Source: Magallana gigas
Taxonomy: Eukaryota
DNA: 64,000 bases
Assembly: GCF_963853765.1 (NCBI RefSeq)
Contig: NC_088862.1
Span: forward strand, 28,024,001 to 28,088,000
Direction: 5' to 3'
A program made the position numbers. Each line of letters opens with the position of its first letter. Position 1 is the first letter of the stretch. Positions 9,001-12,000 of the stretch are shown piece by piece.

Positions 9001-12000
9001 CTAAATGCAATGGCACTTTAGAGCTCAAACTCTGTGCAGATAAATAACCGAACACAAAAGTTCATAAGGGTTATGATAATTGATAGAAGAGCTCAAACTC
9101 TGTGCAAATAAACAAACTGAGCTCATACTCAGGAAATTTTGAGTTGTTTAGTTCAGTAAGCATGGGAAAACACAACCAATGTGTTCGGATTCGCATAAAT
9201 GAACAACTGAGCGCATACTCAGTAAATTATAGGAATCAAGCAGCAGACTTGAATTGCAAATAAACTTAATGTAATAAGAACAAATCAGGCACACACTTGC
9301 AATTTAAAGCACAAACTCATAATAATTGACCAAAGTCAGATTAAGGCAAATAGACCTTAATAAAGTGAAACAAGTGAAGTGATGTAAGTATTGAAAACTT
9401 AATGTTAACTTGTGGAGTAATGCGACAAAACATTACACATAAAATAAGTTAACAATTTACAAGAAAATTACATGCATTTTCTTTATAATATTCCAAGTAG
9501 ATAGCTGTTTGCTATAATTGTGAACTAAAAAACCCCACCTAAAGGTATTGGGTAACATGCAGAAAAGCAGATTTAATGCTTTGTATATACTTTCTGGAGT
9601 ATTTCCCATTCATGTCTTCACGAATATGCACTCCGTCGGAAGACAGAAAATCAAGGGACGCCCAAAAAACCTCGGTGCTTCCAAAAGGAAATGTTATCAT
9701 GTAATGCACACGCCGAAGCGAGTTGAAGGTTCAGAGAAATCACCTCCGAGTTGAATGCTGCTGACACGCGTTGGGAATTGCGCCTGAGAATTTGTCCAAT
9801 CACTACATGTTGTACGTTACAACCGTGCAACAAATATTGCGCATACGAAAGGATTTCTTGCGCCTATTTGGGTATGTTAGGGGAGCTGCAGCACAGGTCA
9901 TTTCCTCCAATTTGAATGAACACAATGTTGGGTCGCGCAACAAAATAGGTAAACTCACGTAGTGCACAAAGTCTAGAAATTGTCAAACCTCCTCTTGCCA
10001 CACAAGTTACATAATATTGATCCCGATTTAAACGTAGATTGTTGTCCTCAGGACTATTGTTCATGAAATCTCTGAGGCGACGTATGAAGGAATGACCCAC
10101 CAAAGTTACACGCAGGGGGTCTCTACCATTCGCCCTCGGTGTTCCCGCCATCTTGGTAAAAGACGTAAACACACGCCTAGATGTTGGAACGAGTAAAAGA
10201 GTCAAAAATACTGACCTGAAAGTCCCGAAAGACGAATGAATACTGTATCCAGATAGATAGTATCTAAGTATAACTCAAATTCCACCCATGCACAAGCATG
10301 AAAATAAAATTAAAGCTCTGTCTTGAACGATCAAAAATATCGGTGCAGCTTCCCCTAGCATAAACAAAGAATGTAAAAATAGCCCCAGAGAGTGCGGCTT
10401 TCTGATTGGCTGATCGGTCATAGAATTTGCATACGGTAATAGAAAACCTTACGACCGGATAAAAACGGTGATGTACAACAAACAACTACGCAAGTCCTTA
10501 AAAAATGTTACACAAGTATAAATAACATGGTATGTAATTAAAAACAATAAGATATAACAATTAATAAATCAAGGATTAACATAAATTGCTTTATTTACAA
10601 AATAAACCCTATTTATACGTCAATATCTTTTATAATTATCCTCGTGCGAAAACTACTAACCATATATTATCTGATCATCAGACTTCGAAACTAACAAACC
10701 AAGACGGAAGTTCTACTAGCAGAAGAAAGAACTGATTTCGAAAAACTTAGATATAAATTATCAAAACTTTATCATGTCCTTTTTTTGAATATGATGCGAG
10801 TTTCTGTGTATCAATTGACATTTAACACGGCGAAAAGGCCTTTTAAGGAAAATATGTTCAAAGGTAGTGAGAAGGAATCTGACGTTATAATATTATAATT
10901 GATTATAATAAGAGAATGCTAAATCCGTACTAAAATTGTGAAAGTCACATTTGCCTTTAGAGAATCTGTAATGCTCTTTTTAATGACATTAAAAGATAAT
11001 CGATATCAATGTATGTATCTATGTAATTGAAATTTAATTTCTTTTTTTTTTAATAAACAATGATAGGGTGGTTTTTAGTATTTGACTTTACCATTGAAAT
11101 AGTTATAAACTGTGGTTATACACTGTGATGGCATCGTCCATAATGCATGGAGAAAGCAAAACAATTGAAATTGATGCATTCACAAATTAAAACACCAGAT
11201 ACCAAATTCAAAATGGAAGGTGCTTTTATGTTTTGATGAAACACCATTTATATATAAAGCATTATTTTTTTTAAGTTTATCCGTTTTAAGTATATGTTTG
11301 AATCCCTCCTGGATAAACTTTATGAAATAATAAAATACTTATCACATCACTAATTAAAAAAATAAGTCCAGTTTATAAATTTATCCTGTCCGTTTGAGTC
11401 AGTGATTGAGTTTGAATTTTGTATCTGGTGTAATGTTAATGCATCAATTTCAATTATTGTGGGTACTCCAAAATTCAAAATCAATCACTGACTGAAACGG
11501 ACAGGATAAACTCTACAAATAATGATTAATATTTAAATGGTGTTCCGTCAAAATATTGATACACTCATTTAGTTTCTGTTTCCTGTAATTTCCATGTTTA
11601 TTAGAATAAAGGTTATAAAATATACAGGTACAAGGTGGTCTTAGCAGAATTATTTTGCGGAAGACAGTGAAAGCATTTTTTAAAAAATTGATACTTTTTT
11701 TAAAAATCGGCCAAAAAAGAAATTTTTGACAAAATGTGTCATCCGTAACATTCGTTTCGTGCGAAATTTTTTGTGGCGTCAGCAAATCCGCAAGCTACAT
11801 TAACTTTTGGACTATAGCGTATCATACCTTCGGGGTTTGACGCAGACCATCGGATGTTGGCGCGACCATCACACTTTGGAGTCTTAGATATGTTTTAACA
11901 TTCGATTATGCAAATGAATTATTTGGCTATCACTGATCACTAAGTTTTTCCTCATATGGTGGAATTTTGGCGATACATACCACGTGATACTAAACTAGTT

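What the first reader, a model, noticed from the sequence alone, without database searches (positions are those of the whole stretch)
9539..10151. SGNH hydrolase sits 5' of gag inside a YR retrotransposon
Seen: all four SGNH blocks and the Ser/Asp/His triad are present, on the same strand, ~725 bp upstream of the gag start and inside the limits set by the empty site. Established (from recall): some animal Ngaro elements carry an SGNH hydrolase ORF, usually described downstream of YR. Inference: a distinct architecture (hydrolase-gag-RT/RH-YR), or a circularly permuted integration of the circular DNA intermediate. The role of the esterase cargo is unknown.
Basis: partly seen in the sequence, partly recalled or inferred. 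Interest (0 to 1): 0.68.

Follow-up and report, generated by a model that had tools for sequence, protein, structure and literature searches.

The report
Esterase gene leading a bivalve-type YR retrotransposon
A dead copy of a tyrosine-recombinase retrotransposon carries its accessory esterase gene in front of gag instead of behind the recombinase, an unusual gene order for this kind of element but not a new kind of element.

Summary
On the minus strand, 10151-9539 is the remnant of a 204-codon SGNH/GDSL hydrolase gene. All four blocks and the Ser/Asp/His residues are present, but the gene is broken by 1 stop and 1 frameshift. It lies 724 nt upstream of an intact gag, which is followed by RT/RNase H and a tyrosine recombinase. 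The whole 6.3-kb unit (about 4289-10623) is missing from a paralogous empty site at 24615/24622.

Intact relatives confirm the enzyme: 92% identity, Pfam above cut-off, a confident SGNH fold, and the catalytic Ser and His invariant in 96 of 96 sequences.

Evidence that the order is a lineage trait:
- one distant relative (P0018) has the hydrolase fused in frame to a gag-like part;
- the insertion ends carry a 13-nt inverted match;
- the 5' end carries a TATA-like motif.

A distant relative in a public contig (L001) has the published Ngaro order, with the hydrolase after YR.

Against this, the copy has no split direct repeats, and CpG content steps sharply at the hydrolase/spacer boundary. No genomic copies of the family could be fetched, and Repbase/Dfam could not be consulted.

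Verdict: a new variant of a known kind, of moderate interest.

The parts
4289..10623 (-). Whole insertion: a YR retrotransposon copy of about 6.33 kb. The right-hand limit is uncertain by about 7 nt.
   Evidence: It is absent from the paralogous site 24615/24622. The flanks 2310-4288 and 10630-15353 are colinear with 22658-29877. No target-site duplication is seen.
10152..10623 (-). 5' leader, non-coding. It has TGACGT plus TATAAATA at the 5' extreme, a CCAAT-like motif, and a donor-like CAG|GTCAGT about 65 nt before the hydrolase ATG.
   Evidence: Sequence read. No Pfam domain in its ORFs. A read-through ORF of another copy (P0002) covers it up to 10521. CpG observed/expected is 1.06 over 10206-10623.
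9539..10151 (-). SGNH/GDSL hydrolase gene, broken by 1 premature stop and 1 frameshift.
   Evidence: The intact relative P0001 is 93% identical and scores 27.2 bits in Pfam PF00657 against a cut-off of 23.6. The fold is confirmed.
8815..9538 (-). Spacer between hydrolase and gag, T-rich, with short repeated motifs (8843-9318). An acceptor-like polypyrimidine-TAG site ends 3 nt before the gag ATG.
   Evidence: No Pfam or Rfam match.
7687..8814 (-). gag-like gene, intact, 375 codons, with a zinc-finger-like Cys/His cluster near the C-terminus.
   Evidence: P0154 is 98% identical over 375 of 375 residues; one HSP, no stop.
6154..7904 (-). pol (reverse transcriptase plus RNase H), broken by 1 frameshift and 1 in-frame stop relative to L001 pol. 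The stop could be this family's natural end.
   Evidence: Pfam RVT_1 at E 4.8e-05 and RT_RNaseH at E 1.6e-04. Identity to L001 pol is 35-42%.
5245..6202 (-). Tyrosine recombinase gene, broken by 1 frameshift.
   Evidence: Pfam Phage_int_SAM_1 at E 1.7e-04 and Phage_integrase at E 5.6e-06..
4289..5244 (-). 3' tail, non-coding, T-rich, with units of about 113 nt repeated across 4711-5189. It holds no hydrolase remnant.
4289..4301 (.). Terminal 13-mer, the inverted partner of 10573-10585.
   Evidence: There is one mismatch. It is the only such match in the 64 kb, and no shuffle of 500 reached it.
10573..10585 (.). Inverted partner of the 3'-terminal 13-mer. It lies 38 nt inside the 5' limit, about 25-30 nt downstream of the TATA-like motif.
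6224..8390 (-). Intron shared with relatives, from a donor AG|GTGAGT inside gag to an acceptor TTTCAG|G just before the YR ATG. Splicing here would give a gag(N)-YR message.
   Evidence: P0161 and P0170 join these two parts at the same residues. The window signals are shown.
24605..24636 (+). Paralogous empty site.

Best explanation
The region is a dead copy of a Ngaro-like tyrosine-recombinase retrotransposon of a bivalve-type lineage. In this lineage the accessory SGNH esterase gene is the first gene of the element: leader, hydrolase, spacer, gag, RT/RNase H, YR, tail.

Shown here:
- the unit is one insertion relative to a paralogous empty site;
- all genes lie on one strand;
- the hydrolase belongs to a large eukaryotic clade of stand-alone proteins of about 195-205 aa that keep the Ser-Asp-His triad and the oxyanion Gly and Asn;
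- this copy cannot work (hydrolase 2 breaks, pol 1-2, YR 1, gag none).

Inferred:
- in intact copies, transcription starts behind the TATA-like motif at the 5' extreme;
- the unspliced RNA presents the hydrolase as the 5'-proximal reading frame;
- gag-pol may be read from an RNA that has lost hydrolase and spacer as an intron, since a donor-like site in the leader and an acceptor-like site 3 nt before the gag ATG are both present;
- the recombinase is made from a second spliced RNA joining the gag N-terminus to YR, a junction that two relatives share.

Likely role of the enzyme. I take the esterase to be a carboxyl-esterase acting on lipids or acetylated groups at membranes and helping the particle or ribonucleoprotein. 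This rests on analogy with the ZfL2-1 LINE ORF1p esterase, which is weakly active and binds acidic phospholipids. I give this role about 0.3, because nothing here tests it.

Likely origin of the order. The order most likely arose from the usual gag-pol-YR-hydrolase order by a shift of the point at which the circular replication form is opened.
For: - Single empty site.
- Domains and order.
- Hydrolase identity: P0001 tblastn E 3e-124; Pfam 27.2 bits against a cut-off of 23.6; AlphaFold mean pLDDT 89.2; 161 or more PDB fold matches at E<=0.001, all SGNH/GDSL-type among those listed; G52, S54 and H208 invariant in 96 of 96 sequences.
- Clade size: 1249 clusters at E<=0.001, and 103 of the best 150 are 185-260 aa. 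A Met aligns 18 residues before block I in at least 90% of the 96 sequences.
- Order outside this copy: P0018 runs from hydrolase into a gag-like part (BLASTP E 5e-05 to window gag residues 65-169; gag-profile E 1.8e-08, the only hit among 153 proteins). None of the 153 hydrolase-family proteins has a convincing YR-like extension; the one weak match is 17 residues at E 0.022.
- Leader conserved in another copy: P0002.
- Ends: 13-nt inverted match, no shuffle of 500 reached it; TATA-like motif.
- Composition: leader, spacer and tail share a T-rich strand bias (T 0.42-0.44, A 0.24-0.26) that the flanks lack.
- Kinship with a canonical Ngaro-like element: L001, with gag 30%, pol 35-42% and YR 30-47% identity.
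- Splicing.
- Esterase analogy: passages of PMC3905857; the best PDB sequence hit of the family profile is 4c1b_A, E 0.004.
Against: - No split direct repeats and no long inverted repeats are found in this copy, although the Ngaro model needs them.
- CpG observed/expected steps from about 0.96 (43 observed, 44.8 expected) in the 5' 1.2 kb to about 0.32 (59 observed, about 183 expected) in the rest. The step falls close to the hydrolase 3' end. C and G are balanced in the hydrolase but C exceeds G in gag, pol and YR. A module with a separate history would look like this.
- The only evidence for the order outside this window is one protein, P0018. Its gag-like part is only 26% identical and lacks the first 64 or so gag residues.
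- A search for long fused forms found none in 582-2000 aa, which is weak evidence.
- The gag search returned 17 proteins, none with a GDSL domain.
- The leader-to-gag intron has no transcript support.
Confidence: 0.62

Rival explanations
1. This is a one-off product. The family has the usual order gag-pol-YR-hydrolase, and this copy was integrated from the circular form at an abnormal point, or is the remains of a head-to-tail dimer cut at both ends.
For: The distant relative L001 has the hydrolase after YR, with direct repeats in A..B..A..B order. Published Xenopus Ngaro-like families do too (passages of PMC9210276). This copy shows no split direct repeats.
Against: - An arbitrary opening point would not be expected to give inverted 13-mers at the two ends or a TATA-like motif at the 5' extreme.
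- The usual order would put about 1.4 kb of non-coding DNA (tail plus leader) between YR and hydrolase, whereas the two nearly abut in L001.
- P0018 joins hydrolase and gag in one frame.
- Hydrolases of this clade start with their own Met.
Confidence: 0.15
2. The unit is a composite. A hydrolase-bearing piece of another repeat (about 1.1-1.2 kb, for instance from an esterase-carrying LINE or a retrocopy) and a hydrolase-less YR element landed next to each other.
For: There is a sharp CpG step and a change of C/G balance at the hydrolase/spacer boundary. The nearest solved structure by sequence is a LINE ORF1p esterase. Esterases occur in several retroelement classes (passages of PMC3905857, PMC5718144 and PMC6431247).
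Against: - It needs two insertions at the same point, in the same orientation, after the duplication.
- There is no LINE RT or endonuclease anywhere in the insertion and no poly(A) after the hydrolase.
- The leader shares the T-rich strand bias of the spacer and tail.
- The 13-mer at the far 3' end pairs with one in the leader.
- P0018 links hydrolase and gag.
- The CpG step can also be read as an unmethylated 5' domain of a transcribed unit.
Confidence: 0.13
3. The hydrolase is a fragment of a host gene that merely neighbours the element.
For: SGNH hydrolases are common host genes. Atlas look-alike clusters are eukaryotic 'hypothetical proteins'.
Against: The paralogous segment lacks it together with the element. 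It is repeated in many contigs (P0001 cluster of 30 members). The frame is decayed like the rest of the element.
Confidence: 0.03

Closest known systems
Ngaro-like YR retrotransposons with an SGNH ORF (Xenopus DIRS-53_XT and DIRS-54_XT; passages of PMC9210276)
   Same: gag-like ORF, RT/RNase H, YR, no methyltransferase, an extra SGNH hydrolase ORF, and no target-site duplication.
   Different: In those families the hydrolase ORF follows YR and the ends are split direct repeats (A1 ... B1 A2 B2). Here the hydrolase precedes gag by 724 nt and no split direct repeats are detectable.
Locus L001 (contig JBEVXV010000479.1, filed as a bacterial MAG but carrying an animal-type retroelement)
   Same: Homologous gag (30%), pol (35-42%) and YR (30-47%). 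Its hydrolase is homologous (22% identity, pairwise E 1e-08).
   Different: The order is gag-pol-YR-hydrolase. Block I reads G-D-S rather than G-H-S. The hydrolase frame has no start codon of its own and sits behind an acceptor-like site. Direct repeats lie in A..B..A..B order.
Esterase domains of non-LTR and Penelope-like ORF1 proteins (ZfL2-1; PDB 4c1b; PMC3905857)
   Same: An SGNH esterase encoded at the 5' side of a retroelement, next to the nucleic-acid-handling protein. It is the best PDB sequence match of the family profile (E 0.004).
   Different: There the esterase is a domain of ORF1p behind a coiled coil in an endonuclease/RT element. Here it is a stand-alone ORF (fused to gag only in P0018) in a recombinase element. 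The sequence match is marginal. The two 'transposon-specific' residues named in the paper were not checked.
GDSL esterase ORFs of rotifer LTR retrotransposons and Terminons (passages of PMC5718144 and PMC6431247)
   Same: An accessory GDSL/SGNH esterase carried by a retroelement, of unknown role.
   Different: Those ORFs lie downstream (ORF3) or within giant telomeric elements. No homology was tested here.
DIRS1-like elements
   Same: A YR retroelement with gag, RT/RNase H and YR. A short inverted match at the ends recalls inverted terminal repeats.
   Different: No methyltransferase-like domain and no internal complementary region. The inverted match is only 13 nt.

Membership tests
SGNH/GDSL hydrolase superfamily | Block I with the nucleophile Ser (G-x-S) | tested here: met
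   G-H-S is present in the window translation. G52 and S54 are invariant in 96 of 96 relatives. The block definition is recalled.
SGNH/GDSL hydrolase superfamily | Block II Gly and block III G-x-N-D (oxyanion hole) | tested here: met
   Both are present in the window translation. G88, G115, N117 and D118 are at least 90% conserved.
SGNH/GDSL hydrolase superfamily | Block V D-x-x-H (Asp and His of the triad) | tested here: met
   D-G-V-H is present. H208 is invariant and D205 at least 90% conserved.
SGNH/GDSL hydrolase superfamily | Pfam model above its curated cut-off | tested here: inconclusive
   The window's first frame piece scores 15.8 bits against a cut-off of 23.6. The intact relative P0001 scores 27.2 bits for PF00657.
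SGNH/GDSL hydrolase superfamily | Flavodoxin-like alpha/beta/alpha fold | tested here: met
   Tested on a model of the relative P0001, not of the broken window gene. Mean pLDDT is 89.2. The top PDB matches are PAF acetylhydrolase-like, acylhydrolase and sialate O-acetylesterase structures, E down to 3e-08.
SGNH/GDSL hydrolase superfamily | Esterase activity | not testable with these tools
   The window copy is broken in any case.
Ngaro-like YR retrotransposons | RT/RNase H plus tyrosine recombinase, with a gag-like ORF upstream | tested here: met
Ngaro-like YR retrotransposons | No methyltransferase-like domain | tested here: met
   No such Pfam hit. pol similarity runs into the YR start.
Ngaro-like YR retrotransposons | Split direct repeats A1 ... 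B1 A2 B2 | tested here: not met
   No direct repeat links the 5' part to the tail, with the repeat finder at seed 9 or blastn at word 7 and E<=10.
Ngaro-like YR retrotransposons | Hydrolase ORF, where present, after YR | tested here: not met
   The hydrolase lies before gag, and nothing hydrolase-like is found in 4289-5244.
Ngaro-like YR retrotransposons | RT/RH groups with Ngaro in a phylogeny | not testable with these tools
   No named Ngaro, DIRS1 or PAT reference sequences could be fetched. The only indirect support is homology to L001, which has the Ngaro gene order.
DIRS1-like elements | Inverted terminal repeats with an internal complementary region, plus a methyltransferase-like domain | tested here: not met
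   There is only a 13-nt inverted match, no internal match to the ends, and no methyltransferase domain.
Transposon-encoded ORF1p esterases (CR1, RTEX, Penelope) | [quoted passage not shown] | tested here: inconclusive
   The profile hits 4c1b_A at E 0.004, 20 bits. The two residues were not mapped.

The most novel reading that the evidence does not exclude
A bivalve lineage of Ngaro-like retroelements has circularly permuted its genome, so that the esterase became the first cistron. It sits in a CpG-rich, presumably unmethylated 5' domain. The element then runs a retrovirus-like programme of alternative splicing: unspliced RNA for the esterase, a leader-to-gag spliced RNA for gag-pol, and a gag(N)-to-YR spliced RNA for the recombinase. 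In one sub-lineage the esterase has fused to Gag, converging on the esterase-bearing ORF1 proteins of LINEs.
Probability: 0.25. Interest if true: 0.65.

Novelty: new variant of a known kind. Interest (0 to 1): 0.45.

Why it matters
What SGNH esterases do for retroelements is an old open question. They recur in LINE ORF1 proteins, Penelope-like elements, rotifer LTR elements and Ngaro elements.

A lineage that has moved the esterase to the front of the element, and in one branch fused it to Gag, would tie the enzyme to the particle-forming protein rather than to integration. It would also parallel the LINE arrangement. That narrows the hypotheses to a role in assembly or membranes.

The permuted order would also be a natural record of replication through a circular form.

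The shared gag(N)-YR splice junction shows that these elements use splicing to express downstream genes. Annotation of YR elements generally ignores this.

Tried and rejected
- Long fused forms. A search of 582-2000 aa with the 96-sequence alignment found none. The tool itself calls this weak evidence.
- Cluster look-ups. Cluster size, names and contig lengths of P0018 therefore stayed unchecked.
- Related loci with the hydrolase. Two alignments were too diverse for the tool. A three-sequence alignment gave 157 pattern matches, none confirmed.
- Related loci with gag. This gave 1 locus from 359 pattern matches. It has no room upstream of gag, so it tests the downstream order only.
- Repeats. 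Split direct repeats, long inverted repeats and an internal complementary region were looked for and not found.
- Other copies. No other copy or fragment of the element exists in the 64 kb (no hit outside the element).
- Non-coding parts. No Pfam domain in ORFs of leader, spacer or tail; 2 sub-threshold chance hits among 10 ORFs. No Rfam family at E<=0.1.
- Structure libraries. PDB by sequence with the single protein P0001 gave only a chance hit. The viral structure library gave generic phage esterases.
- Host gene reading. Rejected because the empty site lacks the hydrolase.
- Literature. Six searches found no paper in the held library that places a hydrolase before gag in a YR element. Goodwin & Poulter 2004 and Poulter & Butler 2015 are not held and are known here only through citations.
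- Not seen or not available. Supplementary tables of PMC9210276 (ORF coordinates) were not seen.
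Full report
**What is at the coordinates**

All coding potential between about 5.2 and 10.3 kb of the window lies on the minus strand. Reading that strand, an ATG sits at 10151-10149 and a stop at 9541-9539. These are exactly the finding's limits.

The translated frame pieces show G-H-S, a block II Gly, G-G-N-D and D-G-V-H. These are the four SGNH blocks with the Ser, Asp and His of the triad; the block definitions are recalled.

The frame is not open. Against an intact relative it has 1 premature stop and 1 frameshift. On its own, the first frame piece is only a weak Pfam match (Lipase_GDSL, E 0.016, 15.8 bits against a cut-off of 23.6).

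**Is it really an SGNH hydrolase?**

- A word-seeded protein search with the first frame piece returned 3 proteins among 86 candidates. One is P0001, 236 aa, 92% identical and intact.
- P0001 matches the window at 9542-10256 by tblastn at E 3e-124. Elsewhere in the 64 kb there are only 4 noise hits at E 2.9-9.1.
- P0001 passes the Pfam cut-off for PF00657 (27.2 bits against 23.6).
- A full HMMER scan of 1.84 billion representatives found 1249 clusters at E<=0.001, 325 at E<=1e-10 and 19 at E<=1e-30. Of the best 150, 103 are 185-260 aa.
- I aligned 96 sequences: 91 of the listed 150, P0001 and P0003 from the first search, and three further long forms. G52, S54 and H208 (P0001 numbering) are invariant. 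H53, R58, G88, G115, N117, D118, D205 and G206 are at least 90% conserved. So is a Met 18 residues before block I.
- An AlphaFold model of P0001 built with that alignment has mean pLDDT 89.2 and pTM 0.80.
- Foldseek against the PDB gives at least 161 matches at E<=0.001. The listed matches are led by PAF-acetylhydrolase-like proteins, acylhydrolases, GDSL esterases and sialate O-acetylesterases.
- By sequence, the family profile's best solved relative is 4c1b_A, 'ORF1-encoded protein', at E 0.004. PMC3905857 holds that code and describes the ZfL2-1 LINE ORF1p esterase (passages).
- Atlas look-alike clusters are eukaryotic, most commonly from Mollusca and, for one cluster, Chordata.

The model and the Pfam pass belong to the relative, not to the broken window gene.

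**The element around it**

| Part (minus strand) | Coordinates | State | Evidence |
|---|---|---|---|
| Spacer | 8815-9538 (724 nt) | non-coding | |
| gag | 8814-7687 | intact, 375 codons; 98% identical to P0154 over its whole length | |
| pol | 7904-6154 | RVT_1 and RT_RNaseH; 1 frameshift and 1 in-frame stop against L001 pol (the stop may be the family's natural end) | |
| YR | 6202-5245 | Phage_int_SAM_1 and Phage_integrase; 1 frameshift | |
| Tail | 5244-4289 (956 nt) | non-coding | |

There is no methyltransferase-like domain and no room for one. Nothing in the tail resembles the hydrolase. ORFs of the leader, spacer and tail have no Pfam domain; 2 chance hits far below cut-off among 10 ORFs. 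No Rfam family matches at E<=0.1.

**The limits**

The window holds a tandem segmental duplication. Positions 2310-4288 and 10630-15353 are colinear with 22658-29877 at 84-92% identity. The second copy runs straight through at 24615/24622.

The insertion is therefore 4289 to about 10623, roughly 6.33 kb, with no target-site duplication. That fits recombinase-mediated entry.

**Is the hydrolase part of the same element?**

For:
1. There is a single empty site.
2. P0002, from another copy, is a read-through ORF covering the leader up to 10521 and the start of the hydrolase. The leader is therefore part of the repeated unit.
3. P0018 (332 aa, 42% identical in the hydrolase) continues without a stop into a segment that matches window gag residues 65-169 (BLASTP E 5e-05). 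That segment is the only hit of a 7-sequence gag profile among 153 hydrolase-family proteins (E 1.8e-08). It carries the motif that gag relatives from Pinctada imbricata and others share.
4. None of those 153 proteins has a convincing YR-like extension. The one weak match is 17 residues at E 0.022. In a Pfam scan of 21 of them, including all those over 290 aa, only GDSL-type families appear.
5. The 13 nt at the 3' terminus (4289-4301) have an inverted partner at 10573-10585. It is the only such match in the window, and no shuffle of 500 reached it.
6. The 5' extreme carries TGACGT plus TATAAATA.
7. Leader, spacer and tail share a T-rich strand bias that the flanks lack.

Against:
1. No split direct repeats or long inverted repeats are found.
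2. CpG observed/expected is about 0.96 in the first 1.2 kb (43 observed, 44.8 expected). It is about 0.32 in the remaining 5.1 kb (59 observed, about 183 expected). The step falls close to the hydrolase 3' end. The C/G balance changes at the same place.
3. P0018 is a single protein whose cluster I could not inspect.
4. The search for longer fused forms found none, which is weak evidence. None of the 17 gag homologues of 206-657 aa has a GDSL domain.

The CpG step can mean a module with its own history. It can also mean an unmethylated 5' domain of a transcribed, body-methylated unit. I cannot tell which.

**A canonical relative for comparison**

A scan of prokaryotic genome contigs with a gag alignment returned one locus, L001. 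It is a 6873-nt contig filed under a bacterial MAG but carrying an animal-type retroelement.

- Its genes run gag 148-1290, pol 1154-2917, YR 2893-3798, then a GDSL hydrolase up to 4422.
- It has direct repeats 1-91/5479-5569 (96%) and 4489-4579/6783-6873 (100%) in A..B..A..B order. The outer copies are cut by the contig ends.
- This is the published Ngaro arrangement (passages of PMC9210276).
- The window's gag, pol and YR are 30%, 35-42% and 30-47% identical to it. The hydrolases are homologous but distant (22% identity, E 1e-08).

The window element is therefore kin to Ngaro-like elements, but its hydrolase sits on the other side. That amounts to a circular permutation of the gene order.

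**How it most likely works**

Shown: the anatomy above, the conserved catalytic residues of the clade, and the decay of this copy.

Inferred: a promoter at the 5' extreme, with the hydrolase as the first reading frame of the full-length RNA.

Two splice features bear on expression.

- First, P0161 and the NCBI model P0170 (Saccostrea cucullata) join the gag N-terminal part directly to the YR protein at the same residues. The window has AG|GTGAGT and TTTCAG|G at exactly those places, making an intron at 8390-6224. P0166 uses the same donor, joined to unrelated sequence. I compared the exons separately and did not build or search the joined model.
- Second, a strong acceptor-like site ends 3 nt before the gag ATG, and a donor-like site lies in the leader. 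Hydrolase plus spacer could therefore be an intron of the gag message. This has no transcript support.

For the enzyme's role I commit, at about 0.3, to a membrane or lipid-directed carboxyl-esterase step that helps the particle. This is by analogy with the ZfL2-1 esterase, which is weakly active on an acetate ester and binds acidic phospholipids (passages of PMC3905857).

**Comparison with what is in print**

In the held library, passages place the hydrolase of YR elements after YR (PMC9210276) or give no position (PMC6681497). Bivalve surveys mention Ngaro only in passing (PMC10294476, one passage). Six searches found no description of a hydrolase before gag.

The two founding papers are not held. 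Supplements were closed.

**Verdict**

A one-off permuted integration gets about 0.15 and a composite of two insertions about 0.13.
- It is a new variant of a known kind, of moderate interest.
- No contig or hit was taken for human.
- The two N runs of the window were left as they are.

Noticed in passing
window 8390-6224 (minus strand): Relatives P0161 and P0170 join the gag N-terminal part directly to the YR protein. The window has consensus donor and acceptor signals at exactly those places, which suggests a spliced gag(N)-YR message. P0166 uses the same donor joined to unrelated sequence.
   Followed up: partly
window 10215-8818 (minus strand): A donor-like CAG|GTCAGT lies in the leader, and a strong acceptor-like site ends 3 nt before the gag ATG. 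Hydrolase plus spacer could be an intron of the gag message. There is no transcript evidence.
   Followed up: partly
window 10623-9424 versus 9423-4289: A sharp CpG step: observed/expected is about 0.96 in the 5' 1.2 kb and about 0.32 in the rest of the element. The window-wide value is 0.77.
   Followed up: partly
window 4289-4301 and 10573-10585; 10621-10609: A 13-nt inverted match at the ends of the insertion, unique in the window. A TGACGT plus TATAAATA motif lies at the 5' extreme, about 25-30 nt upstream of the inner 13-mer.
   Followed up: partly
window 2310-15353 versus 22658-29877: A tandem segmental duplication of about 7 kb at 84-92% identity. It provides the empty site. What the duplicated segment encodes was not examined.
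   Followed up: no
L001 1-6873: A contig filed under a bacterial MAG carries an apparently intact animal-type Ngaro-like element (gag, pol, YR, hydrolase), presumably host contamination. Its hydrolase frame has no start codon and sits just behind an acceptor-like site (about 3866), which hints at expression by splicing.
   Followed up: partly
protein P0164: A gag homologue (43% identity) is named in NCBI as a protein of a bacterial symbiont MAG. It is probably host retroelement DNA binned with the bacterium.
   Followed up: no
window 803-1969: A diverged tandem array with a period of about 166 nt and 74% self-identity.
   Followed up: no
window 8843-9318 and 4711-5189: Short diverged repeats in the spacer (motifs recurring at 68-235 nt) and units of about 113 nt in the tail, at 65-79% identity. 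Their role is unknown.
   Followed up: no
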